A DNA stretch of 64,000 nt. It comes from Macrostomum lignano. Lineage: Eukaryota. Under the pieces are notes generated by a model that did no database searches, had not been told where the DNA came from, and saw nothing but the letters and a program-made list of their open reading frames with translations. Positions within the stretch are counted from its first letter, which is position 1, and every line of letters begins with the position of its first letter. Location: NCBI GenBank assembly GCA_002269645.1, contig NIVC01001600.1:197859-261858 (forward strand), read 5' to 3'. Of this stretch, positions 1,805 through 43,400 are shown piece after piece. Made by a program: the position numbers and the translations under genes.

Positions 1805-2992
1805 TGTAGTGTGAGCATCTTTGCGTTTATTTTGTTGTAAATTGACTGCATTAGTTTCTATATTGTTATTGAATTGTTATTTTGCTTTAGTTTAGTCATG
1901 CGTTTTTTGTGTACTTTTTCTTGTTAGTTAGAATCTAAATTTGTAAACAGGTTAGAGTTAGACGCCATCTGTGACTCAGCGGAGGGTTGAGTTTTGTCTG
2001 CGAACCCCAGCTTTGCGCGGTCAGCCAATCAGAACCGGCCTGGACCCTGGCACGCGGCAAGTTTCAGTTCTACCCGGCGCCGCGGGCACAGTGCAAATCG
2101 GCTTAGCAAGCGGCCGGCCAGACGACCACCACCCGGCTTGAGGGGGTTTTGAGGGGTTGACTCTGACTATATATGAAGGTGTGTTTTGGCAATCGGATCT
2201 CACTTTTTTTCCTTCTCTCCTTTTCCCCGGTTTGTCTTGTCCAGTTCCCGGCCGGTGGCCCGACTTTTCCTCCCCTTGTTGGTTCGCGCTTTGAGGCGTT
2301 TTGATTTCATCACCCCCGGTCCATATCTTTGTTCCCGCCCAACCGCAGTAGTCTTGTGGCGTAACGTCTACGGCAAATTCCTGTCTGAAGTCGTCGCTAT
2401 CAAGCGCGGTTAGATAGAGACTGTCGGATCTGATCAAGTACGCGGCCTCGACCCCGAGGGCCCCAGTGTTACACTGAAGGGCAGTGCCGATAGAACTTAG
2501 TCGGTACTCCGTTGAACGGTCGGTTCGGCAGGGCTCTCGTTTGAGAGTAGGTTCTGGCTTAGGCCAGGGGTTAGGAGTCTTCTCCGTGGTCCTGTGTTCG
2601 GTGCCTCCTCCTTCTTCTTCAGCTGAGATCCGCTTGTCAGTGCGTGTATAATCATTATTTATTAACCGTTGTTGTCGTTTTGTCAACTCTAGTTATCTGC
2701 GCCGTTTGCTTGAATCTTGTAACTCAGCTAATCAAATTAAACCGTCAATCAAGTTAGTTATTCTTGAAATAGGATTATCACTCTCTAAATCTTTCGGTTT
2801 GTGTTCCCTCGTGTTCTTTCTTTTCTTGTACTGTACCTGCGGCTATTGGAGAAAGACTGGTAGGACTCGCCGACCGGCGATAGGCGATTAGGATTAATAG
2901 CTTTAAAATCTTCGAACGCTCCAAGTAGGTTTGTCTAGGGCCTAAATAATTGCTCACCGTGCATGCTATTATCTAATTGCCTATTTATCACA
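1805..2992 (+). repeat. 5' LTR
   Basis: Starts TGTAGTGTGAG, ends TATCACA; matches 11820-13007. CCAAT at 2025-2029 and TATATA at 2168-2173 are candidate U3 promoter elements. Confidence 0.97.
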
Positions 2993-3012
2993 AGTGGAGC
3001 CCCTGGGATTCC
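2993..3012 (+). promoter_or_regulatory. Candidate primer-binding site
   Basis: AGTGGAGCCCCTGGGATTCC directly after the 5' LTR, with TGG 2 nt from the LTR end. Resembles the complement of a tRNA 3' end (TGGAG..., Thr/Gln-like) but the tRNA cannot be assigned by eye. Confidence 0.5.
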
Positions 3013-3518
3013 AATAGTTAGCAGGCGGCAGTTTATTGGTAGGCGCTCTAAGTGAGCAAGCTTAGACTAAAATTCAACGAGTCTGTTCCAGGCTCGTAGC
3101 GGCTATTTCGTCAACCACGCAGTGTGCAGCAATTCCGCATTAGGTGTGGTTTTGCGGTTGGCCAGTTACCCCAAAATACTGAATAGGATTTAGGAGTGGG
3201 AAAAATAAAATTGACCTTCTAAAACTAAAATTAGTACTTTAATAGAAACTTGCGTGTGAAAGTAGATTTTGTTTACAGTTGAAAATTTCATTAGTGTTTA
3301 TCAGCATAGTCTGCGAGTGCGCGCACTAGAGAGTACACCGGTTGAATTTGTCTCAGTGTACATTCAGTTTTCTTATCAGTTATTGCCAGTGCGAGCGAGG
3401 CGACCGATTCCGCTCAGTAGATAAAATAGAAAACTAGATTATTGAAATTGTTATAGCCTTACAAGTTGTACTTTCTGAAGTTGCAGTAATAGAAATTCCA
3501 ATTGGTTGAAACTTAGCA

Positions 3519-4751
3519 ATGGCGCAGGACGGAGAAAATAGTCAAGAATCGAAGTCAGCTGAGATTAGGAACGAAGGCGAAATAGATGAGGCCGAACATT
3601 TGAGAACAGTAGTGAGAGAACTGCAGGATCGCATAAGAAGAATGGAAACCGAAAATCCCGAACCTAGAGTGATTTTGAAGTCGCATAACAGCGTAGCAAA
3701 GCCAAAGCCATACCGACTTGGCTCAGATTTCGAATTGTTTCTAAGAATCTTCAACAACTACTGTCAAGGCAACAGTATAGACGAATCGGCTAAAGTGTAT
3801 CAACTATTGTCGCTCCTAGACGAAGACGCCTACAAGGTTTACATTAACTTAGGCCTAGCGAGCACCGAATCATTTGAAAGCATCGAAAAGACTTTAAAGG
3901 ACAAATTTAAGCCCGTAGGACAGAAGGAAGAAGCGAAGCTAGAGCTGATGAACCGCAGGCAGAAGGAAGACGAATCGTTAGAAGAATTTTACGACGCGCT
4001 AGTTGAATTAGTTAGGAAAGCAGGACTAGAGAGTCAGGCTAGAGAGCGAGTTTCTGAACGATTTGAAGCCGGCATAGCAAATTATAAAGTCAGGCGCGCA
4101 GTTATTGCCTATCGCAGAACGCATGAATCGAAATACCAGACGCAAGATTTACTGACTGCAGCAAAGAACGAGGAGATCCTCGAAGAACTCGCAAATCCAG
4201 GCAGTCAAAAGAATAGGAGGAAGCAGGAGGGCTCAAATACTTTGACAGCTCAAGTAGAAAAAGAGCAGAAAAAGCCAGCACCCAGCGCGGACCAAGGCCA
4301 CCAGTCATTTGGACCTCAGTTTGCTTCCCCGAGCAATTATCCTTCGCAGTACCAACCGTACCAGAATTATCAGCCTCAGTTCGACTACAGGCAATGGCAA
4401 CCTAGGTTCGCCCATAGACAAATGAACCCAAGCTATAGGCCACAGGCACCAGTGCAGCCTCCGAATAGCTTTCGGCCACAGCATCACATGAGCAGTTACT
4501 CGAGACCCTATAATAGGCAGTCTTCGCCATTTGTCAGGCCCGCCATGACACGCCCGTCACGCTTTGGTCACGAGGCCGGAGGGGCCAATGACAGGTTCAC
4601 ACCTTCGGGGGCGAACGCGCCAAATGCGAGAAAGGCCTGTTATGAGTGCGGCGAAGAAACTCACCTGGCTAGAGACTGCCCAGTTAGACGAAATTCTTTA
4701 AACTACCGACGGGGCGGCACCAAGGGAGGGCCAACCGCCCCCAGCCATTAA
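3519..4751 (+). CDS. gag: Gag, 410 aa, with C-terminal CCHC zinc knuckle
   Basis: ATG ORF; capsid-like RRQKEDESLEEFYDAL segment; CYECGEETHLARDC (CX2CX4HX4C) at 4638-4679. Confidence 0.93.
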   Translation: MAQDGENSQESKSAEIRNEGEIDEAEHLRTVVRELQDRIRRMETENPEPRVILKSHNSVAKPKPYRLGSDFELFLRIFNNYCQGNSIDESAKVYQLLSLLDEDAYKVYINLGLASTESFESIEKTLKDKFKPVGQKEEAKLELMNRRQKEDESLEEFYDALVELVRKAGLESQARERVSERFEAGIANYKVRRAVIAYRRTHESKYQTQDLLTAAKNEEILEELANPGSQKNRRKQEGSNTLTAQVEKEQKKPAPSADQGHQSFGPQFASPSNYPSQYQPYQNYQPQFDYRQWQPRFAHRQMNPSYRPQAPVQPPNSFRPQHHMSSYSRPYNRQSSPFVRPAMTRPSRFGHEAGGANDRFTPSGANAPNARKACYECGEETHLARDCPVRRNSLNYRRGGTKGGPTAPSH

Positions 4752-4765
4752 ACCGATTCACTCCC
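4697..4765 (+). promoter_or_regulatory. -1 programmed ribosomal frameshift signal (gag to pol)
   Basis: T TTA AAC heptamer (4697-4703) in the gag frame; 7 nt spacer; stem GGGGCGG (4711-4717)/CCGCCCC (4735-4741); loop GGGAG (4724-4728) complementary to CTCCC (4761-4765). The pol frame is -1 and open from 4688. Confidence 0.85.
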
Positions 4766-7700
4766 AATAGAAGAGCTGCAGCAGTAGAGGACCAGCAAGA
4801 CAGCTCAGTCAATGTAGAATATGGCAACTTAGTTTGGTACAATTATTACAGAGGCTACGGATTTCTGCGAGATAGCGATAATAGAGATATATTCTTTCAT
4901 GTGACTAATACTAATATAGCAACTGATTACGAAATTATGCATTTTCTGCGCCAGAGGGCGACAGTAAAATTTATTCGCACTAACGATACTACTCATAGTA
5001 GGAAACAGAGAGCGGTCAATGTTAAAATTTGCTCAAGCGAGGAACGCAGATTAGCAGAAATTAACAAACAGAAGTCAGCGAGCTTAGCTAGACAGTCAGA
5101 GCAATTGAAAGAAGAATTAGAGAAGCGAAGCGAAGCTGCGGCAGCTCAGAGAAGCGCATTGAATAGCATAGACTTGAGACTCAGTGAGGTGGAAGGCAAG
5201 AAAGCTTCATCAGACGAACCGAAAGTAGTAAAAGAATTGTCAGAACTTAGAACCGAACTGAAGGACTTACGCCAATGCTTGGTAGGAAAAGTCCAAGAAG
5301 AGCCAGCGAAAGTAGTATTAGACAGTAGTGCAACGACAACAGAACTTAGAGCTGAACTTAGGGAAATGAAGCAGGAATTAAGGAAGTTAGAGACAGCCAT
5401 CCAGCGAGATGTGGCAGCTGAAAAGAAAGCAACAGAGAAGCGAGAGAAGACCGTAGAAGCAGACATATCTAGCCAATTAGTGAATTCAGGATTATTCCTC
5501 GATAGCCAGATTAACGGACTAAGCGAAAAAATATTAGTTGATACCGGCGCCTCAAATTGCCTAATTGATAATAAATTATATCAACGCCTCTATCCAGCCA
5601 ATCATAGTCTGAAGCCATGCTCAGTGAATATGCGATCCGCCAATGGCCAGACTTCAAATTTATTAGGCCAAGTAGCATTGCGTGTTAGATTTGGGGACTG
5701 CGAGATTACGCACCCATTCTATGTTGCTGAAGGCTTACTAACATCATCAATAATAGGCATCGATTTGTTAACCAGGCATAAAATTAAATTAGATATAGCA
5801 GGAAAATCCTTAGAATTTAGTGATCGCAGAATTCCGCTTGTAACAACGAGTGATGAAACGCGTTGCGTCCTACTGCAAGTAGTCAAGAAAGTATCTATAG
5901 CACCGATGAGCGAAATTTATGTCAAGGCTAAATGTAAAGATACTCCAGAAACTGCAGAACTCGGCTTCATTTCAGGCCGCAGTCAAATTAGCGAGAAAGA
6001 TGAGCCATTAGTAGCTAAAGCTATTACTAGATTGGACGAATTCGGCGAAACTTACGTTAGATTAATGAACCTGACAGAAGAGGCACAGACAATTCATAAG
6101 GATGAGGTAGTTGCGCAGTATCAACCGATGAAGGAGGAAGTAGAACTTTTCGCAATGTCAGAAACTGATTTAGAAGTAAGTGCGCAGAAGCAATCGAAGG
6201 CAGCAATTACGGTGCAAGAAGCTGATAGACTTAGGGAGCAATTCCGCTTAAACGAGACCGATTTAAGTGAGGCTCAGAAGAGAAAAGTAATTGAATTATT
6301 ACATCGTTATCAAAATATAGTTTCGAAGGATCAGTGGGATATCGGCAAGACCCAGATGGGCGAATTCAAGATTGAGACTACCGATGAAATTCCAGTCAGA
6401 ATTCCCCTGCGCAAGCAAAGCCCTGAGCAACGAGAATTTGTTAGCGGACATGTGCAGCAGCTGTTAGAGCACGATTTGATTGAGCCCTCAGAATCTGAGT
6501 GGAGTTGCCCTATAGTTCTCGCCCGGAAGAAGTCCGGAGAATTCAGATTTTGCTGTGATTTTAGACAACTAAATAATAAGACTAAGAAGGACAGTTTTCC
6601 GTTACCGCTAATTCAAGAATCGCTGGAATCCCTGGCAGGCAACATGTACTTTAGCACCCTAGACATGGTCGGCGCTTATTGGTCAGTGAAGGTCAGAGAG
6701 ACTGACCGCGAGAAATTAGCGTTTCGAACCCATGATGGCCTGTTCCAGTGGAAAGTTTTGCCTTTCGGAGTCACGAATGGACCCGCTTGCTTTCAGCGCA
6801 TAATGCAGAAGATCTTAGGCGATTACGCTTATAAGTTCGCTTTACTCTACCTAGATGATGTTATTTGCACAGGCAAGAATTTCGAAGCAATGCTAAGTAA
6901 TTTAGAATTAATTTTCTCTCGATTAGCAGATGCTGGTATGAAAATCAAGCCAGAGAAGACCTTTCTGTTTCGGAAAGAAGTCACCTTCCTAGGGCACACC
7001 GTCTGCCAGCACGGTATCTATACCAGCAAAGATAAGATAGAAAAAGTCCAAACATGGCCCCGGCCAGAGAATATCTCTGAGCTGCGCGGATTCTTAGGCT
7101 TAGCCGGCTACTATCGCAGATTTATTAAAGACTTTGCGCGAATAAGTGAGCCCTTGAATAATTTAACTAGAAAAGATGTCAAGTATAAGTGGGATGACAG
7201 TTGCCAGAAGGCATTCGATCTATTAAAGCAGAAGCTAGTAAGCGCACCTGTACTGAGCTACCCCAGGTTCGATAGCGACGCGGGACCGTTCATCCTCGAT
7301 GTCGACGCCTGTGACGTAGCTATAGGTGGAAATTTATTACAAGAGCAAGATGGTGAAGAAAAAGTGATAGCCTATGCTTCGCATCCGTTAAATGAGCATC
7401 AGTTGAATTACTGCACTACGATGAAGGAAATGTTTGCGCTGATATATTTCTTAGAACATTACCGGCCTTATCTGGTCGGCCGTCGTTTCAAGGTCAGGAC
7501 AGACCACGCGGCCCTCCAATGGCTACGCAAGTGCCACGGTGCAAAAGGCATGCTAGGCAGATGGAATATGATTCTTGAGCAGTTTGATCAATTTGAAGTA
7601 ATTCGAGAATGGAGGAATATGACTTTGCAATTCAGTACCGCCAAGGGATTGCCCATGGTAACGCAGACGCCCTGAGTCGCAGACCTCAGCGGGATGGTCC

Positions 7701-9475
7701 CCCGAAACGCTACCATGAGGAATGCCCCACTTGCAGTGCGACGAAGACAGCAACAGTCCACTGCGGTGCAATTAATATCGATACGCCAGCAGGAATTGTA
7801 GAACTGCAGGAGAGCCAGCCAGAGTTGCTGCTGCTCAAGCAAAAGCTCAGACAGGGAGAGCCCTGTCCACCCAAGAATGAATGGGTTGGAATGAGCCGCA
7901 GTTATAAGTCATTATTTAGCGATTATGAGCAGCTATTAGTGAAAAATGACATAATTTACAGGAATTGGATAGATTCCGAAGGCCGAAAATTTGAGCAGAT
8001 TGTACTGCCGGAAAATCAAGCCCTGGAGCAGCAGTTGTTTCGAGCTTACCACGATCAAATGGCTCACGGCGGTATTTCGAAGACAAAAGATTTGATTCGA
8101 CAGAGATTTTGGTGGCCAAACTATTCAACGAACTTAGATAGATATATTAAGACTTGTACTGAGTGTCAGACAAGAAAGAAATACGGGCCGAAGCCACGAG
8201 CGCCCTTAGAGCCAGAAGTCAGCAGTTACATGGGCGAGAAAGTACATATAGATTTCGCCGGTCCGTTTAACGCCACAGCACGGGGGAACAAGTACCTCCT
8301 GCTGATGGTTGATCACTTTACGGGTGGCTAGAGGTAAAAGCGCTTAGAGATTGTACAGCTGAGAGAACAGCTTGGGCCCTGTACACAGAGTGGATCACTC
8401 GGCATGGTGCCCCTGAAGCATTCATATCAGACAGAGGAACATCATTTACTGCAGAATTAGTGAAGTCATTAACCGAAAATTTCCGAATAGATTTGCGCCA
8501 TACTACTAGCTACCATCCGCAGGCAAACGGTCGCTGCGAGCGCATGGTCAGAGTAGTGAAAGATGGAATCAGATTAGCTCAGGTGAACTCAGTTTGGCAT
8601 GGGATGAGGTGCTTCCGCACGCTTTGATGGTTCAGCGAAGCACGGTCAGTGAAAGCAATAAATTTAGTCCGTTCGAATTAGTCTATGGTCGAAAGATGCG
8701 GCTACCGGTTGATGCTGAGCTTGGATTGCCTTCGCCGGAGCGCAAGACCCGTGATAAACATTTACATGATCTGTATAAGAAGTGCATGGAATCGTATAGA
8801 ATCGCCAGAGAAAAGCAGCAAATATCAGTCAGGCGGCAGAAATCTAATTATGACACGAAAGTATTCCAGCAGTATTATCAGCCAGGTGACCTGGTCTGGA
8901 TAGCGAATACGCAGAATTGTTATGATACGAATAGGAAGTGGGTAGGTCCGTATCGAGTGCTTGAAGTAAGAAATAATGGAAAAAATTTAAAAATTGAACC
9001 CGGTCCAAAGGTTGACCGAATAGAGCAACCCGTCAGAATTCATGACGTAGTGACAGTAGACAGAACAAAGCCCTGCTACTTGTCAGAAGAAAAGTTGCGT
9101 CAATATCGAGAAGAGGAAGCTGGAAGTGCTAGTGATGACGGCTCGGAGGAGTCAGAAAGAGTCCAAGTGGAGATTCAGAGACCAGAGAGAATTAGATTTT
9201 TGCAACGTGAGAGAGCTCACGAAGCTACTGGAAGTAATAAAGATAGAACAGTGGAAAATACTCAGACAGCGGGCAATGCAAACCAGCAGGCGCAGGCGAG
9301 TCCTGCGGGGTCTCAGGCCAGGCAGAGTCCTGTGCGCACTCCACCGAATTTAATGCATCTGAGCCCGGTGCACAGTACGCCCCCGCAGCGGGCAGGCATG
9401 AATAATGTTAGCTGGATACCGCGGCTGCGGAACCGCGCGGCGATTAGACCCCCGGAACGATACGGTTATCATTGA
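4703..9475 (+). CDS. pol: Pol: cold-shock domain, coiled coil, protease, RT, RNase H, integrase; three apparent 1-nt deletions
   Basis: CSD 4814-5029; protease LVDTGA (DTG 5540-5548); RT YLDD 6848-6859; RNase H DACDVAIGG and TDHAAL; IN H-H-C-C (YHDQMAH, CTEC), HIDFAGP, SDRGTSF, NGRCERM, GPY. Frame changes near 7608, 8323 and 8593. Confidence 0.93.
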
Positions 9476-10044
9476 ATGGAGTCTATAGAAACGAAAGGCA
9501 CTGTCGAGACGAAAATTTCAATTGTATTACTAATAGTAACTTGTCGAGACATACGCGAGAAAATTGTAGAACGCAAAAATGGAACCAGAGAAAAATAGTC
9601 AATAGAAAAAATAATAAAGACTTGCAAGTGCTGATGTTGACACTGCAGTTGCAGGAGTTGAAGACTAACTGCTCGAGCTGCCACACCTGGTAGATTCCAG
9701 GACGCTAATGAAAGAGAAATACCATAGACGACCATAGAAAGTGTATGAAACGATTGGAAGTTGCAAATAGAAATTGAAATTGAATTGAGCCCAGATTGAA
9801 GTCGTCTGCGGTTCCATCGGCCAGTATATTCGGAATTATTATAATGAGAAATTATTAAGGAATAAATATTATTATAAATGTTATTAAAAAAAACAGTCTT
9901 GCAGTAGAACTGACATGCGTGAATATTCGATACAAACATAAAAAATTGTAAAAGCTTCATAAAACAACACAAAAATATTATTCAAATTGCTTGAGTCAGA
10001 ACACTGCTTGACACAAAAATATTAAAAACTTACAGCTAACCGAC

Positions 10045-10662
10045 ATGTTACATGTTGCAGCTGAAATGGCTGAGCGAGAGGAAGGGGAGATTCCCGACGG
10101 CGCTACTGCGGTCCCGGAGGTGGACGTATTGGATGTGTGCGCCGCCGTCGACGACCTGGGTATGTCGGAGGCGACGGCGAAGCCATCACGAGCTGAACGG
10201 CGGCGAGAGCGGGCTCAGAGGCATTACGAACAACGACGTGCCGTGCGCCGCGCTGAACGCGAACTTGAGACATCGACGGCGCTGACGCGGCCTCAGGTTT
10301 TTTCGGCCCTGAAGCGCTACATTAGGAACGACTGGAGCCGGAATCCGTCGGTTGATACGCTTCGCGCAAAGCTCCGGCACGTGCGGCTTGCTGGTCAGCA
10401 AGGCGGCATTCCGATGCCCGAGTTGTTCGACGCGATGGCGACGGCCGTGTCGGTGGCCATTGCTTTCACACCGCGCCAGCGAATGCCTGACACTAGTATC
10501 GACGACATCCGCACGGCCTGTCAGGCGGAAGGGCTCGCCTTGAAGGGTCGCAACGGCACTGGGTCCGCGTCGACATCGATGGGGGCGTTCTGCCCGCTGG
10601 CCGCTGCGAGTCATTGTTCGGCGCCGGTTACCGCCGCCAGCTGGAAGAGGACGGTTCAGTAA
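10045..10662 (+). CDS. Accessory ORF3 of the retrotransposon (non-env, unknown function); may extend to 10766
   Basis: GC-rich 205 aa sense ORF between pol and the 3' LTR. Second Met at 10066 follows a branch-point-like CTAAC and a TTGCAG acceptor. Another frame (HWVRVDIDGG...RAKRDP*) runs to 10766 if one C is restored near 10557. Confidence 0.65.
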   Translation: MLHVAAEMAEREEGEIPDGATAVPEVDVLDVCAAVDDLGMSEATAKPSRAERRRERAQRHYEQRRAVRRAERELETSTALTRPQVFSALKRYIRNDWSRNPSVDTLRAKLRHVRLAGQQGGIPMPELFDAMATAVSVAIAFTPRQRMPDTSIDDIRTACQAEGLALKGRNGTGSASTSMGAFCPLAAASHCSAPVTAASWKRTVQ

Positions 10663-11807
10663 CGGTTCGCAGCGTGGCGCGTTTTCGAGTCGACACCCAC
10701 GCGGCTGCTGACAGGTTTGAGTGCTTGTATATGCGCACCCCACCACGTGCTAAGCGGGACCCGTAGTTGGTGAGCGACTGTTGTTGATGGTTGACTAGGC
10801 TTTAGTCGTCATTGGTTGTACGGTTCCGCGGGGTCGTCTCGTCAGGTTGTCGTTCGGGCAGCGGGTCAAGTTGAGTAGTTGGGCTGCGAATCGGGGCGCC
10901 GTCTGAGCCTCGTTGGGCGCTTAAATAGTTTTGTCCTGGGCACGACAGAAAACTGCAGCCATTGGGCGGTGAATTTCGCCACGGGGATTGGTCCTGGGCA
11001 AGACCATAAACTGCAGCCAATGGGCGATAGTTTTCGCGCGCTGAGTGTTAGTCCGCCACGGGAGCGTGGGTGGAACTTAATTATCGTCGAGGCATCCAAT
11101 TAGAGATAAGCGTCGTGGTTTATTGCGATAAGAATTCCGCTGTGGAGACAGTGAGGGTCGTAGCGCCCACCCTACCTTTTTTAGGAGGGGGGAGGTGCGG
11201 ATAGTTAAATCAGCGAGTAATAAAATTTTGCCAGCCGATAAGGTTCATCGTAGCACGTCGAGAAGGAGTAATTTAATTAATTTGTGTAAAATGCGTCAAC
11301 GCGTTATTTGTTCTTGGTGATGGGTAGCATGCGTTTCTTTTTGTTTCATTATGTTTCAAGTGCGCGAGGTTTTTGCTTTAGTTCTTTGCCGCGGGAAAGT
11401 CGTGCCATAGTTTGCGTAAACGTTGCGTTCTGTCGCGATTTGTTTCGATTTATTTATTGATTTGCTTGTGTTTTGTCTTGTCGCGTATTGAATAGTAACT
11501 TTGCTTATGTATTTGATTGCGTTTTGCCGTGTCATAGAATTGTATTTGTGTTCTTGTTTGCGTTTCATTGTCGTGTCATGTTTCGCATAGTGAATTACGT
11601 TGTGTTCCCATTTGCGTTTTTTTCCCAGTTGCTATAGTTATACCCTTGTTATAGTGCTCTTGTTCTTGAATTTTGAATTTTGCTTTCCGCGAATGCGTTC
11701 CGTGCTGTACTGTACCAACTTGCTTACTAGGAGTAGTATGTCGTGAATATGACGCAAATTTTCATTTGTTGTAAAAGTTTTTTCTTCTTTTGTACTCTAT
11801 TTCTTTT

Positions 11808-11819
11808 AGGAGGGGGGAG
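11808..11819 (+). promoter_or_regulatory. 3' polypurine tract
   Basis: AGGAGGGGGGAG immediately before the TG of the 3' LTR, preceded by a T run. Confidence 0.9.
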
Positions 11820-13007
11820 TGTAGTGTGAGCATCTTTGCGTTTATTTTGTTGTAAATTGACTGCATTAGTTTCTATATTGTTATTGAATTGTTATTTTGC
11901 TTTAGTTTAGTCATGCGTTTTTTGTGTACTTTTTCTTGTTAGTTAGAATCTAAATTTGTAAACAGGTTAGAGTTAGACGCCATCTGTGACTCAGCGGAGG
12001 GTTGAGTTTTGTCTGCGAACCCCAGCTTTGCGCGGTCAGCCAATCAGAACCGGCCTGGACCCTGGCACGCGGCAAGTTTCAGTTCTACCCGGCGCCGCGG
12101 GCACAGTGCAAATCGGCTTAGCAAGCGGCCGGCCAGACGACCACCACCCGGCTTGAGGGGGTTTTGAGGGGTTGACTCTGACTATATATGAAGGTGTGTT
12201 TTGGCAATCGGATCTCACTTTTTTTCCTTCTCTCCTTTTCCCCGGTTTGTCTTGTCCAGTTCCCGGCCGGTGGCCCGACTTTTCCTCCCCTTGTTGGTTC
12301 GCGCTTTGAGGCGTTTTGATTTCATCACCCCCGGTCCATATCTTTGTTCCCGCCCAACCGCAGTAGTCTTGTGGCGTAACGTCTACGGCAAATTCCTGTC
12401 TGAAGTCGTCGCTATCAAGCGCGGTTAGATAGAGACTGTCGGATCTGATCAAGTACGCGGCCTCGACCCCGAGGGCCCCAGTGTTACACTGAAGGGCAGT
12501 GCCGATAGAACTTAGTCGGTACTCCGTTGAACGGTCGGTTCGGCAGGGCTCTCGTTTGAGAGTAGGTTCTGGCTTAGGCCAGGGGTTAGGAGTCTTCTCC
12601 GTGGTCCTGTGTTCGGTGCCTCCTCCTTCTTCTTCAGCTGAGATCCGCTTGTCAGTGCGTGTATAATCATTATTTATTAACCGTTGTTGTCGTTTTGTCA
12701 ACTCTAGTTATCTGCGCCGTTTGCTTGAATCTTGTAACTCAGCTAATCAAATTAAACCGTCAATCAAGTTAGTTATTCTTGAAATAGGATTATCACTCTC
12801 TAAATCTTTCGGTTTGTGTTCCCTCGTGTTCTTTCTTTTCTTGTACTGTACCTGCGGCTATTGGAGAAAGACTGGTAGGACTCGCCGACCGGCGATAGGC
12901 GATTAGGATTAATAGCTTTAAAATCTTCGAACGCTCCAAGTAGGTTTGTCTAGGGCCTAAATAATTGCTCACCGTGCATGCTATTATCTAATTGCCTATT
13001 TATCACA
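11820..13007 (+). repeat. 3' LTR
   Basis: Direct repeat of 1805-2992; the ORF-track translations of both copies are identical. Confidence 0.97.
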
Positions 13008-13839
13008 GCTACAACAAATGCTTTGTTGCAAATATAATTTAACATTTTAAGTTATTTTTTTCTAGGGACAACAAAGGCAAAGCTAACCTTTTGAAAAAAT
13101 AAAAACAATATCAATGAGAATTTTGTTAATTCTTTAGCATATCTAATTTAAAAAATAGTTTATTATATTAGCTTTATATTTTATTCTAGAAATGACTTTT
13201 CATGCTAGAAATTTCCATTTTAAAAAAATACAAAAATAGAGGCCTCTTTGTATCTTGTACATTATAGTTTTTTTAAAAGCCATTTCTATGCAAAAGATAA
13301 CATAGTTTGCTATTACTCTATACCCTATCATCCTAACAAAATATAAGAAGAATGTTTTAGATAATAAACATTTTTTAAGTTTTTTTTTCAAAGATAACTT
13401 GTATTTTTTCTTTTATCTAATATATATTTGCTTTTTATTCTATGTATATATAAGTTATTTTATGTAATAATATTATAAATGTATATAATGTACCCCATGT
13501 AATATACCATTGCATTTAAAAGTTACCTATAAACCTGCAATATTTCATTTGAATTTTCAATGAAAAAAGTATAAATAGTAAAGCAATATATTGTAAAAAT
13601 GGCAAAAAGGTCAATTTTTATAAATATGATAGTTTTTTAGTATACTTTTATTTAGAACTTTAGATAAAAAATTATTTTTAGTTACATTTTTCAACTATAA
13701 TTTAATATTTAAGTATCAAATTGCATAAGTTTAAACTTGAGCAAGATATAACACAAAGTATTAAAATTGAAGTACAAAATTATTCTATTTTTGAACAAGC
13801 TTTTCAAAGCTTTGGCTTATATTGAAAGACATAATGGCT

Positions 13840-14464
13840 GGCAGTAGGCTAGCTTGGAAAAAAGATCAAAATATTTCTAGGCTAGCCTAGGAAAAGATCT
13901 GGCTATCCTGCAGAATCATTGATTTTGTTAAACTCACTGTATATATATTTTTTAGCCATTGATATAAAACTTGCCAAAAATGAGTATTTTCATTATGCCA
14001 ATATTTTGGAAGTGTTTTGGCATTAAAATTCCATTTGTGGGTTTTTTGTCTGGTTTAACAAATGATTCTGCAGGATAGCCAAGGATCTTCTATTTATCTT
14101 TCTTATATAGACCCTATGTTGCCTGGAAAAAGATCATCTTTGACTAAATGAATTAAATATCAAAGTGTCAATGTAGAAAATAAGCAAAACACATATTTGC
14201 TTATGTTTGGTATTCACTTAAAAATGACAAGAAGTTTAAATTGAATTTTTTCTCCCAATTTAAATTACATGAATTATAAATTTATAAACTTCTTGTTTTT
14301 TATTATATCATATTATATATATAATATTATATATATTATAATTTATTTATAAATTGAATTATATAATTTGAATGAATGTATATAAGCAAGATCAACAGAA
14401 TATCTTTTCCCAGGCTAGCCTGGAGATATTTTGATCTTTTTTTCCAGGCTAGCCTACTACTGCC
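13840..14464. mobile_element. Foldback/MITE-like element with nested inverted repeats
   Basis: Outer imperfect IR of about 60 bp (13840-13898 / 14402-14464); inner IR 13901-13933 / 14053-14080; palindromic sub-motif AGGCTAGCCT recurs in the arms. No clear TSD. Confidence 0.55.
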
Positions 14465-37400: not shown

Positions 37401-40400
37401 GTTCCTGGGACGGTACATGCATCTTGGCTAAGAAATTGCTCAATGTTAAAGGGATTAAATATTCGAAAAACATGCTTTTTTGCAAAGGTCAAGCAAAATT
37501 TTTGACTTGAAATGCATTGTAAGAATGCTAGAGAAAAAACTGACTGGCTGAATTACGATTGTGATAAAGATTGCATCACAACAAGTTGAAAACAGTGCCA
37601 CAGAAACGCACACAAGACTTCATTTAAATTGCGTAACCATATTGCTAACTTAAATTCAGACTGATACTGGCTGACTGAGAAATTGATTATGTCATAACTT
37701 TTTACTCTAACCGACTTGCTATAAGTATTGAATTATAAGGGCCACAAGTCATGTTCTCCAATTGAAAAGAGATAGCCGGATGCAAACAGACTGGAATGCT
37801 AATGTAGCGACCTTGGTTCGAATCTTAGTAGTAAAAAATGTTTTTTTTATTAAAACACCTTAAAAAACACAAAATTCTAAACATTAAAGAGCCACCATTT
37901 CAAACCTAAAAGAGCCACCATGTCAAACATTAAAGAGCCACCATTTCAAACCTAAAAGAGCCACCATGTCGAACATTAAAGAGCCACCATGTCGAACATA
38001 AAAGAGCCACCATATCAAACATTAAAGAGCCACCATTTCAAACATTAAAGAGCCGCCATGTCAAACATTAAAGAGCCACCATTTCAAACCTAAAAGAGCC
38101 ACCATGTCGAACATTAAAGAGCCACCATGTCGAACATAAAAGAATTACCATGTCAAACATTAAAGAGCCACCATATCAAACATAAAAGAATTACCATGTC
38201 AAACATTAAAGAGCCACCATGTCGAACATTAAAGAGCCACAATGTCAAACATTAAAGAGCCACCATTTCAAACCTAAAAGAGCCACCATGTCGAACATTA
38301 AAAAGCCACCATGTCAAACATTAAAGAGCCACAATGGCAAACATTAAAGAGACACCATTAAGAACATTAAAGAGCCACCATGTCAAACATAAAACAGCCA
38401 CCATTTCGAAAATTAAAGAGCCACCATTTTAAACATTAAAGAGCCACCTTGTCAAATATTAAAGAGCCACAATGTCAAACATTAAAGAGCCACCTTATCA
38501 AACATTAAAGAGCCACCATGTCGAACATAAAAGAGCCACAATGTAGAACATAAAAGAGTCACCATGTCAAACAGTAAAGAGCCACCATGTAAAACATTAA
38601 AGAGCCACCATGTCGAACATAAAAGAGGTACCATGTCAAACATTAATGACCCACCAGGTCAAACATGAAAGTGCCACCATGTCAAATATTAAAAAGCCAC
38701 CATGTCAAACATTAAAGAGCCACCAGGTCAAACATGAAAGTGCCACCATATAAAACATTAAAGAGCCACCATGTCAAACATTAAAGAGCCACCAGGTCAA
38801 ACATATACATGACTTCATGTCAAACATTAAAGAGCCACCATGTCGAACATAAAAGGGCCACCATGTCAAATATTAAAGAGCCACCATGTCAAACATTAAA
38901 GAGCAACCAGGTCAAACATGAAAGTGCCACCATGTAACACATTAAAGAGCCACCATGTCGAACATTTAAGAACCACCATGTCAAACATAAAATAGCCACC
39001 ATGTGAAACATATAGGTGACTCCATGTAAAACATTAAAGAGCTACCATATCAGACATATACATGACTCCATGTCAAACATATACGTGACTCCATGTTAGA
39101 CATTAAAGAGCCACCATGTCGAACATTAAAGATCCAACGTATTAAAAATACAAGAGCCACCATGTCAAACATATACATGACTCCATGTCAAACATTGAAG
39201 AGACACCATGTCGAACATAAAAGAGCCACCATGCAAAACATAAAAGAGCCACCATGTCTAACATTAAAGAGCCACCATGGCAAACATATACATGACTCTA
39301 TGTCGAACAATCAAGAGCCACCATGTCAAACATATACATGACTCCATGTCAAACGTTAAAGAGACACCATGTCAAACATTAAAGAGCCACCATGTCAAAC
39401 ATTTAAGAGCCACCAGGTCAAACATGAAAGTGCCACCATGTAAAACATTAAAGAGCCACCATGTAAAACATATACGTAACTCCATGTCAAATATTGAAGA
39501 GACCCCATGTCAAACATTAAAGAGCCACCACGTCGAACATAAAAGAGCCACCATGTAAAACATATACGTAACTCCATGTCAAACATTGAAGCGACACCAT
39601 GTCGAACATAAAAGAGCCACCATGTCGAACATTAAAGAGCCACCATGTCGAACATAAAAGAGCTACCATGTCAAACATTAAAGAGCCACCATGTTAAACA
39701 TAAAAGAGCCATCATGTCAAACATATAAGTGACTTTATGTCGAACATTAAAGAGCCACCATTTCTAACATTAAAGAGCCACCATGTCCAACATTAAAGAG
39801 TCACCATGTCAAAAATTAAAGAGCCACCATGTCTATCATTAAAGAGCCATCATGTCAAACATTAAAGAGCTACTTTGTCTAACATTGAATAGCCACCATG
39901 TCAAACATTAAAGAGCCACCATGTCAAACATTAAAGAGCCACCATGTCAAACATAAAAGAGCCACCTTTTTGAACATTAAAGAGCCACCATTTCGAACAT
40001 TAAAGAGCCACCATGTCAAACATAATAGAGCCCCCATGTCAAACATAGAAGAGCCCCCATGTCAAACATAGAAGAGCCCCATGTCAAACATTAAAGAGCC
40101 ACCATGTCCAACATATACATGACTCCATGTTGAACATTCAAGAGCTACCATGTCAAACATATACATGACGCCATGTCGAACATAAAAGAGCCACCATGTC
40201 GAACATTAAAAAGCCACCATGTCAAACATTAAAGAGCCACCATTTCAAACCTAAAAGAGCCACCATGTCGAACATTGAAGAGCCACCATGTCGAACATTA
40301 AAGGGCCAGCATGTCAAATATTAAAGGGCCACCATGTCAAATATTAAGGAGCCACCATGTCAAACATTAAAGAGCCACCAGGTCAAACATGAAAGTGCCA

Positions 40401-43400
40401 CCATGTCTAACATTAAAGAGCCACCATGGCAAACATATACATGACTCTATGTCGAACATTCAAGAGCTACCATGTCAAACATATACATGACTCCATGTCA
40501 AACATTAAAGAGACACTATGTCAAACATTAAAGAGCCACCAGGTCAAACATGAAAGTGCCACCATGTAACACATTAAAGAGCCACCATGTCGAACATTTA
40601 AGAACCACCATGTCAAACATATACGTGACTCCATGTAAAACATTAAAGAGCTACCATATCAGACATATACATGACTCCATGTCAAACATATACGTGACTC
40701 CATGTTAGACATTAAAGAGCCACCATGTCGAACATTAAAGAGCCAACATGTTAAAAATACAAGAGCCACCATGTCAAACATATACATGACTCCATGTCAA
40801 ACATTGAAGAGACACCATGTCGAACATAAAAGAGCCACCATGTCAAACATTAAAGAGCCACCATGTCAAACATAAAAGAGCCACCTTTTTGAACATTAAA
40901 GAGCCACCATTTCGAACATTAAAGAGCCACCATGTCAAACATAATAGAGCCCCCATGTCAAACATAGAAGAGCCCCCATTTCAAACATAGAAGAGCCCCC
41001 ATGTCAAACATAGAAGAGCCCCCATGTCAAACATTAAAGAGCCACCATGTCCAACATATACATGACTCCATGTTGAACATTCAAGAGCTACCATATCAAA
41101 CATATACATGACGCCATGTCGAACATAAAAGAGCCACCATGTCGAACATTAAAAAGCCACCATGTCAAACATTAAAGAGCCACCATTTCAAACCTAAAAG
41201 AGCCACCATGTCGAACATTGAAGAGCCACCATGTCGAACATTAAAGGGCCACCATGTCAAATATTAAAGGGCCACCATGTCAAATATTAAGGAGCCACCA
41301 TGTCAAACATTAAAGAGCCACCAGGTCAAACATGAAAGTGCCACCATGTCTAACATTCAAGAGCTACCATGTCAAACATATACATGACTCCATGTCAAAC
41401 ATTAAAGAGACACTATGTCAAACATTAAAGAGCCACCAGGTCAAACATGAAAGTGCCACCATGTAACACATTAAAGAGCCACCATGTCGAACATTTAAGA
41501 ACCACCATGTCAAACATATACGTGACTCCATGTAAAACATTAAAGAGCTACCATATCAGACATATACATGACTCCATGTCAAACATATACGTGACTCCAT
41601 GTTAGACATTAAAGAGCCACCATGTCGAACATTAAAGAGCCAACATGTTAAAAATACAAGAGCCACCATGTCAAACATATACATGACTCCATGTCAAACA
41701 TTGAAGAGACACCATGTCGAACATAAAAGAGCCACCATGTCAAACATTAAAGAGCCACCATGTCAAACATAAAAGAGCCACCTTTTTGAACATTAAAGAG
41801 CCACCATTTCGAACATTAAAGAGCCACCATGTCAAACATAATAGAGCCCCCATGTCAAACATAGAAGAGCCCCATGTCAAACATAGAAGAGCCCCCATGT
41901 CAAACATAGAAGAGCCACTATGTCAGACATTGAAAAGCCACCGTATCAAACATAAAAGATACACAATTTCAAACGTAAAAGTAAGCGAATTTAAAGGAGC
42001 CGCTATAATGCTAAGGAAATTGTCGCACTAGCTACTTATTGTCTGGTGGATGCTTGCTATTTGGGGATGCTATCTATCTCGGGGATGCTTGCTATCTGGG
42101 GGATGCTTGCTATCTTGGGGATGCTTGCAATCTGGGGGATGCTTGCTATCTGGGGGATGCTTGCTATCTGGGGGATGCTTGCTATCTGGGGGATGCTTGC
42201 TATCTTGGGGGATGCTTGCTATCTGGGGGATGCTTGCAATCTGGGGGATGCTTGCTATCTTGGGGATGCTTGCAATCTGGGGTGATGCTTGCTATCTGGG
42301 GGATGCTTGCTATCTGGGGGATGCTTGCTATCTGGGGATGCTTGCTATCTGGGGGATGCTTGCTATCTGGGGGATGCTTGCTATCTGGTGGATGCTTGCT
42401 ATCTGGGGGATGCTTGCTATCTGGGGGATGCTTGCCATCTTGGGGATGCTTGCTATCTGGTGGATGCTTGCAGTCTTGGGATGATTTCTTTTTGCAATGC
42501 ACTTCATTTGAGCAGTTTGTCTGTTGTCTTTTTGAAGGATTTTTGGCTGTCTTTTTGTTACTTGTAGAAAACAGAGATTCTATCCAGATGTCCCCCATCG
42601 GGGGGCGAAGATTGCTAGTCTAACCCTATCTGTCTTATATCTAACCCTATCTGTCTGATATCTAACCCTATCTGTCTGATATCTAACCCTTTCTGTCTGA
42701 TATCTAAGCATGATATCTAACTCTATCTGTCTGATATCTAACCCTATCTGTCTGATATCTAACCCTATCTGTCTGATATCTAACCCTATCTGTCTGATAT
42801 CTAACCCTATCTGTCTGATATCTAACCCTTTCTGTCTGATATCTAACCCTGATATCTAACCCTATCTGTCTGATATCTAACCCTATCTGTCTGATATCTA
42901 AACCTATCTGTCTGATATCTAACCCTATCTGTCTGATATCTAACCCTATCTGTCTGATATCTAACCCTATCTGTCTTATATCTAACCCTATCTGTCTGAT
43001 ATCTAACCCTATCTGTCTGATATCTAACCCTATCTGTCTGATATCTAACCCTATCTGTCTGATATCTAACCCTATCTGTCTGATATCTAACCCTTTCTGT
43101 CTGATATCTAACCCTGATATCTAACCCTATCTGTCTGATATCTAACCCTATCCCTTTGACATCCGCTTTAATGACAGTCCTTTAAATGACGTCAGCACAT
43201 CTCATCCATCTATCCCCATCGCCTGCACTCACCCGCATCCCTCAATATATCCAGAAATTTATGAAACCTCCTAAAAGAAGTCTCAATGCTCTCCAACAGT
43301 TCCTCATCCTGCAGGAGGCTGGCTCCGCCGCCCCTGCCAGCCTCCCGGATCCGCTGCTCAAGCTGACGTTTCAACGCCGAATTCTCCGCCCGAAGTCGGC

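What the first reader, a model, noticed from the sequence alone, without database searches (positions are those of the whole stretch)
10045..10766. Non-env accessory ORF3 with an EEGEI (ARS2-recruitment-like) motif and an Arg-rich helix: a possible Rev-like RNA-fate factor
Seen: a sense ORF in the env position with no signal peptide, furin site or TM helix. It starts MAEREEGEIPD (EEGEI at 10078-10092), followed by AERRRERAQRHYEQRRAVRRAER. CTAAC...TTGCAG at about 10036-10060 looks like a splice acceptor, and a donor-like AA/GTGAGC lies in the leader at 3052. Gag also has NEGEI near its N-terminus. Established: E[DE]GE[IL] motifs in Red1/ZFC3H1, ZC3H18, ZC3H4 and NCBP3 bind ARS2 of the cap-binding complex, which routes transcripts to termination, decay or export. 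Arg-rich motifs are the RNA-binding elements of Rev, Tat and Rex. Inference: ORF3 may bridge the element RNA to CBC-ARS2, or act as a decoy against exosome targeting. With the CSD, the element would carry two RNA-handling modules. A 5 aa motif can occur by chance.
Basis: partly seen in the sequence, partly recalled or inferred. Interest (0 to 1): 0.72.

Follow-up and report, generated by a model that had tools for sequence, protein, structure and literature searches.

The report
Retrotransposon accessory gene shared with Polintons
A young jumping gene of a flatworm carries a conserved extra gene, also present in the worm's virus-like Polinton elements, next to short repeats predicted to fold like the RNA knots that plant viruses use to stop RNA-degrading enzymes; together they likely protect the element's RNA, but the predicted link to the host protein ARS2 is untested.

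Summary
ORF3 is a real non-env gene of a young Ty3/gypsy family of Macrostomum lignano, under purifying selection (pN/pS 0.16-0.25 in 17 of 21 copy pairs). The window copy is frameshifted near 10580; four other copies read 233 aa to the stop at 10766. It matches no catalogued family, but its core is about 50% identical to a gene in the host's Polintons. E[DE]GEI is kept in all 7 distinct copies, and host ARS2 keeps its binding surface. However, the Polinton and outside homologs lack the motif, and binding was not tested. A strict Rev role is doubtful: 18 of 29 places lack ORF3, including young copies. There the slot holds 4-7 (ORF3 copies: up to 2) repeats predicted to form a pseudoknot resembling the coremin Xrn1-resistant RNA of plant viruses. 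My searches found no such element described in a retrotransposon. Best reading: an exchangeable 3' slot that shields element RNA from decay (0.4).

The parts
1805..2992 (+). 5' LTR (TG...CA), 4-bp target-site duplication GCTA at 1801-1804 and 13008-13011
   Evidence: 1188 bases identical to the 3' LTR; flanks
2995..3011 (+). primer-binding site (TGG start, complementary to a tRNA 3' end; tRNA identity not tested)
   Evidence: sequence
3050..3057 (+). donor-like site AA/GTGAGC in the leader; use not shown
   Evidence: kept in the 7 other copies printed, of 8 stretches examined
3519..4751 (+). gag with zinc knuckle; N-terminal NEGE[I/V/A]
   Evidence: Pfam Retrotrans_gag, zf-CCHC; I 15, V 13, A 1 of 29 copies printed from 30 loci
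4772..9475 (+). pol: cold-shock domain (about 4823-5026), protease, RT, RNase H, integrase; frameshifted in this copy near 7600, 8325 and 8580
   Evidence: Pfam; ORF list
10030..10060 (+). acceptor-like site before ORF3 (weak: no pyrimidine tract, CTAAC not conserved)
   Evidence: GCAG kept in 25 of 26 loci printed
10045..10766 (+). ORF3, accessory gene (ATGs at 10045 and 10066); this copy is frameshifted near 10580 and stops at 10662; four other copies read 233 aa to the stop matching 10766
   Evidence: GC 0.64 against 0.44-0.49 in gag and pol
10078..10092 (+). EEGEI, ARM-like motif in a predicted disordered N-terminus
   Evidence: 2 EEGEI and 5 EDGEI among 7 distinct copies; pLDDT below 50 for residues 1-37
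10123..10158 (+). acidic-hydrophobic motif (DVLDVCAAVDDL), conserved outside the family
   Evidence: aligns with the start of P0001 and loosely with P0006
10192..10260 (+). Arg-rich helix
   Evidence: helix 42-68; kept in P0001, absent in Polinton homologs
10288..10766 (+). core shared with Polintons: predicted four-helix bundle, then a low-confidence beta region and a basic tail (the latter two out of frame in this copy)
10931..10961 (+). coremin-like pseudoknot, unit 1 (predicted)
10989..11019 (+). coremin-like pseudoknot, unit 2 (predicted)
11808..11819 (+). polypurine tract (a second identical purine run at 11183-11194)
11820..13007 (+). 3' LTR

Best explanation
ORF3 is a selection-kept accessory gene of a young flatworm Ty3/gypsy family and belongs to an uncatalogued protein family also carried by the host's Polintons; it likely shields the element's RNA from host decay, its Arg-rich helix likely binding RNA and its E[DE]GEI motif predicted (untested) to occupy ARS2, while the repeats behind it are predicted to fold into coremin-like pseudoknots that would stall 5'-3' exonucleases. 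Shown: the gene, its selection, the Polinton homology, the two states of the slot (ORF3 with up to 2 units, or no ORF3 with 4-7 units), and pairing-preserving variation in the units. Inferred: RNA binding, ARS2 binding (about 0.35), Xrn1/Xrn2 resistance (about 0.6), action in trans on ORF3-less copies, and the idea that protein and longer array are alternative answers to the same problem.
For: Selection: pN/pS 0.16-0.25 in 17 of 21 pairs over codons 1-134; 16 synonymous and 0 replacement differences in codons 175-233 between C1568 and C859. Motif: it fits the ARM consensus (E/D)(D/E)GE(L/I/V) (bioRxiv 10.1101/2023.07.25.550453) and lies in a disordered N-terminus, N-terminal like the Red1 and PHAX motifs. 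Its codons carry synonymous changes at three positions plus one E/D exchange, and none breaks the motif. Shuffle chance is 0.2-0.6%. The host ARS2 zinc-finger region is intact over two exons. The Arg-rich helix is kept in P0001, 32% identical over 246 columns. Pseudoknot: 98.8% of 242 cells pair in 22 units, two outer pairs covary, and slid controls give 19-60%. A 2-nt bulge pairs 62 of 63 cells against 1, 22 and 24 for other bulges. Stem and spacer match the published coremin motif, AAAC-U is invariant and variation falls on positions that mutagenesis tolerated. The pattern gives 59 and 91 hits in the genome, all at places of this family, and 0 for the reversed control.
Against: The motif is absent from the Polinton homologs, P0001, P0003, P0004 and P0006. 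Its invariance is not beyond background: 8 of codons 2-33 vary, so four fixed positions stay fixed about 0.3 of the time (arithmetic). The conserved core is used by DNA elements, and their copies lack both the helix and the motif, so the core's job may be unrelated to RNA fate. The fold match is only generic HEAT/MIF4G/MA3-like, Z 6-7.6, in the range the tool calls common. The 8-nt loop breaks the YG..AD rule of classic coremin, the spacer differs at one essential position, and the bulged second stem is untested. The units are related by descent, so the shuffle controls overstate covariation. Swapping of ORF3 and extra units may only reflect a recombination-prone slot.
Confidence: 0.4

Rival explanations
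1. ORF3 is a transcription regulator: an acidic-hydrophobic N-terminus (activation domain) plus a basic helix and helical core that bind DNA or chromatin at the LTR, and at the Polinton termini; EEGEI is only part of an acidic tail.
For: The core is shared with DNA elements, near their terminus. The acidic-hydrophobic motif at 10123-10158 is conserved further than EEGEI. The C-terminal basic tail is kept in both element types. It could act in trans, fitting its absence in 18 of 29 places.
Against: No DNA-binding family or fold was matched. Polinton copies lack the basic helix and the acidic motif. This reading does not explain why extra pseudoknot units fill the slot when ORF3 is missing.
Confidence: 0.25
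2. ORF3 is a cytoplasmic counter-silencing or translation factor whose helical core mimics a MIF4G/MA3 pair and engages eIF4A-type helicases or small-RNA machinery, useful to any mobile element.
For: MIF4G, MA3 and W2 domains (mimivirus vIF4G Z 7.6, rmsd 2.2, 76 aligned; DAP5, Pdcd4, Paip1) recur among the best natural matches. A host-directed function would explain sharing between a retrotransposon and a Polinton.
Against: Z values are in the range of generic helical hairpins, identities are 2-15%, and designed repeats rank higher. The basic tail and Arg-rich helix suggest a nuclear protein (inference).
Confidence: 0.15
3. ORF3 is a strict Rev/CERV-like export adaptor that is needed to export unspliced genomic RNA, made from a spliced message and acting on a response element (possibly the repeats).
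For: Arg-rich helix, donor-like and acceptor-like sites kept across copies. The precedent CERV in Cer1 (PMC10309623). More repeat units in ORF3-less copies could catch protein made in trans.
Against: 18 of 29 places lack ORF3, and five of them tested have LTR pairs 99.5-100% identical. No Leu-rich export signal stands out: the loose pattern hits are Val/Ala-rich or lie in core helices. The core occurs in DNA elements.
Confidence: 0.1
4. EEGEI is a chance match in an acidic tail, the repeats act on their own, and ORF3 is cargo with a function unrelated to RNA handling.
For: The motif is confined to one family. Many short motifs could have been noticed, and the conservation test is weak.
Against: Low shuffle probability, and the only change is E/D at the degenerate position. 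The Arg-rich helix is deeply conserved.
Confidence: 0.1

Closest known systems
Non-env ORF3s of bdelloid rotifer LTR retrotransposons (PMC5408684; abstract and outline seen)
   Same: Extra gene in the env slot; the same ORF type is shared between very different mobile elements.
   Different: Those are recognisable enzymes (GDSL esterase, DEDDy exonuclease) shared among retroelements; this is an orphan fold shared with a DNA virus-like Polinton.
CERV of C. elegans Cer1 (PMC10309623; abstract and one Discussion section read) and retroviral Rev
   Same: Accessory protein of a Ty3/gypsy element proposed to govern genomic RNA fate; Arg-rich stretch as in Rev (Rev features partly recalled).
   Different: CERV is large, with G-like and Cys-rich domains, and is required for export. 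ORF3 is 233 aa, matches no known family, is missing from most copies and has no clear export signal.
ARS2-recruitment motif (ARM) proteins: Red1, ZFC3H1, FLASH, ZC3H18, NCBP3, PHAX (bioRxiv 10.1101/2022.01.19.476877 and 10.1101/2023.07.25.550453; passages read)
   Same: Exact consensus match in an acidic, disordered N-terminus; single motif as in PHAX and Red1.
   Different: All are host factors with measured binding. Here the motif is in a mobile-element protein, untested and limited to one family.
Coremin motif, xrRNA-C and its Watson-Crick variant xrRNA-WCC (PMC6546385 parts 1-2 of 4, PMC10520033 parts 1-3 of 6, PMC10321173 passages)
   Same: GUC/GAC stem, AAAC-U spacer, 3' UTR position, tandem copies, loop-to-3' pairing as in the WCC variant.
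   Different: 8-nt loop with a predicted 6-bp second stem broken by a 2-nt bulge; located in an animal LTR retrotransposon, not an RNA virus; resistance not tested.
Polintons / Alpha adintoviruses (PMC8502044; passages read)
   Same: The element at G000:C2529:17164-35936 has terminal inverted repeats, pPolB, rve integrase, packaging-ATPase-like, protease-like, PLA2 and pX-like genes and carries the ORF3 homolog.
   Different: The homolog is not a named adintovirus gene in the passages read; the paper's Adintoc gene sets in the supplements were not examined.

Membership tests
Ty3/gypsy LTR retrotransposon | LTRs with TG...CA, target-site duplication, PBS, PPT | tested here: met
Ty3/gypsy LTR retrotransposon | gag, then protease-RT-RNase H-integrase order | tested here: met
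env fusion protein | signal peptide and membrane anchor | tested here: not met
   acidic N-terminus; maximum 19-residue hydropathy 1.32 in a core helix
ARM-containing ARS2 partner | (E/D)(D/E)GE(L/I/V) in an accessible acidic region | tested here: met
   7 of 7 distinct copies; residues 1-37 disordered; consensus
ARM-containing ARS2 partner | motif conserved beyond its flanks and across distant homologs | tested here: not met
   absent in Polinton homologs and P0001, P0003, P0004, P0006; no excess over flanks
ARM-containing ARS2 partner | host ARS2 effector surface present | tested here: met
ARM-containing ARS2 partner | motif-dependent binding to ARS2 | not tested
Rev-like export adaptor | Arg-rich helical motif | tested here: met
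Rev-like export adaptor | Leu-rich nuclear export signal | tested here: inconclusive
   a loose pattern gives 7 overlapping hits, none Leu-rich and exposed
Rev-like export adaptor | made from a spliced message | tested here: inconclusive
   contigs of 8 runs cannot show absence of a junction; sites kept across copies
Rev-like export adaptor | required for export of unspliced genomic RNA | not testable with these tools
   indirect: 18 of 29 places lack ORF3, though supply in trans is possible
coremin xrRNA (C / WCC) | short first hairpin with GUC/GAC stem | tested here: met
   22 of 22 units; outer pairs covary
coremin xrRNA (C / WCC) | conserved AAAC-U-A-C spacer | tested here: inconclusive
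   AAAC-U invariant, next base G instead of A; A-to-U there abolishes stalling, and A-to-G was not among the tests in the parts read
coremin xrRNA-C (classic) | loop consensus YG(N)nAD | tested here: not met
   loop second base is U
coremin xrRNA-WCC | Watson-Crick pairing of loop with 3' spacer | tested here: met
   130 of 132 second-stem cells pair; bulge test
coremin xrRNA (C / WCC) | second hairpin downstream | tested here: inconclusive
   a 2-bp hairpin pairs in 82% of cells but competes with the pseudoknot for the same bases
coremin xrRNA (C / WCC) | stalls Xrn1 | not testable with these tools
   bench assay
Polinton (element at G000:C2529) | terminal inverted repeats, pPolB, rve integrase | tested here: met
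   196-nt repeat at 96%; Pfam DNA_pol_B_2, rve, Chromo
Polinton (element at G000:C2529) | packaging ATPase, protease, capsid proteins | tested here: inconclusive
   weak Pox_A32 (E 0.006) and Peptidase_C48 (E 0.05); PLA2 and Adeno_PX hits; the 470-codon frame in the capsid position has no Pfam hit
MIF4G / MA3 domain | fold match above generic helical hairpins | tested here: inconclusive
   Z 6-7.6, identity 2-15%

The most novel reading that the evidence does not exclude
An animal retrotransposon defends its RNA on two levels from one swappable slot: a protein that mimics host ARS2 partners to turn the cap-binding complex away from termination and exosome decay, and arrays of virus-type exonuclease-blocking pseudoknots that grow when the protein gene is dropped; the protein's core is traded with endogenous DNA viruses (Polintons).
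Probability: 0.2. Interest if true: 0.85.

Novelty: new variant of a known kind. Interest (0 to 1): 0.62.

Why it matters
How LTR retrotransposons without env or a known Rev keep long unspliced RNA from nuclear surveillance and 5'-3' decay is largely open. This family offers two directly testable parts: a 5-residue ARS2-type motif in a mobile-element protein, and about 30-nt coremin-like knots. My searches found such knots described only in RNA viruses, and the scan had noted them in phages and giant viruses. The genome holds young copies with and without the gene, which is a natural comparison. The gene also documents exchange of an accessory gene between a retrotransposon and a Polinton in one host.

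Tried and rejected
No family for ORF3: Pfam, PHROGs, PDB sequences, Foldseek PDB and viral libraries, none at E<=0.001. The word-based homolog search with ORF3 gave 0 of 3770 candidates; with alignment A3 it returned only P0003 and P0004. Of 4 profile hits, P0002 is a plant multicystatin and was dropped as a false hit. The metagenome scan for the context of P0006 found 313 pattern matches, none confirmed, so the setting of P0001, P0003, P0004 and P0006 is unknown. The viral-contig scan with A3 could not run and the ESM Atlas was unavailable. Complex prediction with ARS2 was not available: no verdict. The host ARS2 entry P0007 is a faulty gene model that lacks part of the zinc finger. Expression: no RNA holder listed on record; runs are 'RNA?' guesses kept as contigs. 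No joint from 3051 to 10061 was listed in 8 runs, which contigs cannot turn into absence. Rfam has no family for the repeat units or the viral look-alikes. Rejected: assembly error at the ORF3 break; CTAAC as a conserved branch point; gag NEGEI as an ARM (N at position 1); EDSEI in some Polinton copies as an ARM (no Gly, not conserved); a bZIP reading of the Arg-rich helix (pattern recalled; spacing off, no zipper). Literature searches without a prior description of this gene, of a mobile-element ARM or of an xrRNA in an LTR retrotransposon: (listings only, except the papers named). No supplements were read; those of PMC12801592 (family tables) and PMC8502044 (Adintoc genes) may bear on novelty.

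Full report
Setting. The finding lies in a Ty3/gypsy element at 1805-13007 with two identical 1188-nt LTRs and a 4-bp target-site duplication. It has gag, a cold-shock domain at the front of pol, protease, RT, RNase H and integrase. A host ARS2 exon is 98% identical to a UniRef entry labelled Macrostomum lignano, which names the host. The family is young: LTR pairs of 7 further copies are 99.5-100% identical over the parts compared. PMC12801592 (passages) lists many Ty3 families in this worm; its main text has no hit for 'ORF', 'cold shock' or 'splic'.

Observation. All listed features are present at the stated places. A DNA search gave 63 matches, of which the best 30 were fetched, covering 29 places. 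Eight places carry the ORF3 start (7 distinct sequences), three carry only its 3' half, and 18 lack it. Four copies read 233 aa from the second ATG to the stop matching 10766. The window copy is frameshifted at about 10580. Contigs of runs X1 and X3 cross that place with no difference, so the break is likely a real feature of this copy. One other copy is frameshifted earlier and two are cut off near 10518. Three copies (C251, C859, C538) have no gag-pol in the stretches fetched.

A real gene. Over codons 1-134, pN/pS is 0.16-0.25 in 17 of 21 pairs; the rest are 0.31, 0.36, 0.45 and 1.05, the last from four differences. Pairs are not independent. The extended C-terminus shows 16 synonymous and 0 replacement differences between C1568 and C859. 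GC is 0.64 against 0.44-0.49 in gag and pol. Contigs from seven runs guessed to be RNA cover ORF3, but none is on record as RNA, so transcription is not shown.

What it is related to. No catalogued family or fold matches. In the same genome, matches of 42-55% identity to residues 76 onward share terminal sequence with an 18.8-kb element at G000:C2529:17164-35936. That element has 196-nt terminal inverted repeats, pPolB, rve integrase with chromodomain, PLA2, pX-like, dNK, dUTPase and TBP-like genes, and weak ATPase and protease hits: a Polinton of the Alpha adintovirus type as described in PMC8502044 (passages). Its ORF3 homolog is an open 181-codon frame 0.8-1.4 kb from one end, lacking the motif and the Arg-rich helix. 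A profile search of 1.84 billion proteins gave 4 hits, one of them false. P0001 aligns over almost the whole length (32%) and keeps the acidic-hydrophobic motif and the Arg-rich helix but starts after the place of EEGEI; its contig is only 1041 nt, so an upstream exon is possible. In a 9-row tree the gypsy and Polinton proteins are sisters (99/99) with P0001 outside. The helix-bearing form is therefore likely the older one, but the direction of transfer is not settled.

Predicted build. Disordered residues 1-37, helix 42-68, four-helix core 75-154 (pLDDT about 80-90) and a low-confidence beta region with a basic tail (alignments of 8 and 11 rows). The core resembles HEAT/MIF4G/MA3 hairpins only at a generic level.

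The motif. The published consensus is (E/D)(D/E)GE(L/I/V), and human ARS2 binds the fission-yeast Red1 peptide. The 7 distinct copies have EEGEI (2) or EDGEI (5), with synonymous changes at three motif codons. Shuffle chance is 0.22-0.62% depending on pattern and region. The host zinc-finger surface is conserved across two exons. Against this: the motif is missing from every homolog outside the family, and with 8 of 32 N-terminal codons variable its constancy is unremarkable (about 0.3). Gag has NEGE[I 15, V 13, A 1] in 29 copies, off-consensus at position 1. Binding was not tested; I put it at about 0.35.

Rev-like? The Arg-rich helix is real and old, but no clear export signal was found. Eighteen of 29 places lack ORF3, five of them tested being as young as ORF3 copies. 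On a tree of the 1.1 kb upstream (19 rows) ORF3 presence needs 3 changes, with 0 of 200 bootstrap trees giving one, so the slot is swapped or lost repeatedly. CERV (PMC10309623, abstract and one section) shows that gypsy elements can have such a factor, but it is required, and it is large with G-like and Cys-rich domains that the ORF3 model lacks. The donor-like and acceptor-like sites persist across copies, in ORF3-less copies too; the CTAAC does not.

What fills the slot. ORF3-less copies leave the window's sequence at 10073 and rejoin near 10925-10940 through extra units of a roughly 56-nt repeat. The 8 ORF3-less loci counted have 4-7 units; the 8 ORF3-bearing ones have 2 (five loci), 1 (two) or 0 (one, cut off). 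Each unit starts with a hairpin whose outer pairs covary. Its loop can pair with the bases after AAAC, across a 2-nt bulge: 98.8% of 242 cells pair in 22 units chosen from 63 distinct ones, and only that bulge size works (62 of 63). I first recalled the likeness to the coremin motif, then checked it in print. Stem and spacer match the BNYVV motif except at one spacer base, and the two spacer bases that tolerate change are the ones that vary here (PMC6546385, PMC10520033). The loop breaks the classic rule but fits the Watson-Crick variant in kind (PMC10321173). Two patterns hit only this family in the genome (59 and 91 hits, controls 0). In IMG/VR the strict pattern gave at least 137 stretches, 80 fetched. 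Of 68 matches with an 8-nt loop, 62 pair 5 or 6 of 6 loop bases directly with the 3' strand, with compensatory changes, and 51 lie 20-35 nt before an ATG. Earlier notes of this scan describe the same knot in phages and giant viruses; I saw them after my own analysis and count them as leads only.

Mechanism and verdict. Most likely the 3' slot serves RNA survival. The knots would stall Xrn1/Xrn2, leaving a protected 3' fragment or blunting termination after cleavage at the AATAAA sites in the spacer (9613, 9861). ORF3 would bind element RNA by its basic helix and occupy ARS2 by its motif, acting in trans for copies without it. The gene, its selection, the Polinton link and the two slot states are shown; every functional step is inferred (0.4 overall). 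Rivals are a transcription regulator (0.25), a cytoplasmic counter-silencing or translation factor (0.15), a strict Rev (0.1) and a chance motif on unrelated cargo (0.1). Extra ORF3s shared among mobile elements are known (PMC5408684, abstract), so this is a new variant of a known kind. Copy counts may include duplicated haplotypes and are lower bounds. Interest 0.62.

Noticed in passing
window 10931-11019; L012-L030: Tandem coremin-like pseudoknots in the 3' untranslated region, more numerous in ORF3-less copies; may deserve a finding of its own.
   Followed up: yes
L191-L270 (IMG/VR): The same knot with an 8-nt loop and an unbroken second stem occurs in many large DNA-virus contigs, mostly 20-35 nt before a start codon; 4- and 6-nt loops are classic coremin. 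No Rfam family.
   Followed up: partly
G000:C2529:17164-35936 (L061, L062, L075): Apparently full-length Polinton with TBP-like, deoxynucleoside kinase and dUTPase genes; many shorter relatives share its terminus and the ORF3 homolog, some as inverted pairs (C1839, C3475, C1378).
   Followed up: partly
window 4697-4703 and 4823-5026: A TTTAAAC heptamer in the gag-pol overlap (resembles a -1 frameshift site, recalled), followed by a cold-shock domain and a long coiled-coil-like stretch before the protease.
   Followed up: partly
window 11183-11194: A second purine run identical to the polypurine tract, about 625 nt upstream of it; some copies lack the stretch between the two.
   Followed up: no
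L012-L030, start of the slot: ORF3-less copies keep the acceptor-like site and an ATG that opens a 9-codon frame ending inside the first repeat unit.
   Followed up: no
window 4663 and 8048: Contigs of runs X2, X3 and X5 join the same foreign sequence to these two places; perhaps another mobile element inserted in some copies.
   Followed up: no
window 37740-42000: Tandem array of a 23-nt unit, over 170 overlapping copies.
   Followed up: no
window 13853-14447: 46-nt inverted repeat (89%) around 503 nt, MITE-like.
   Followed up: no
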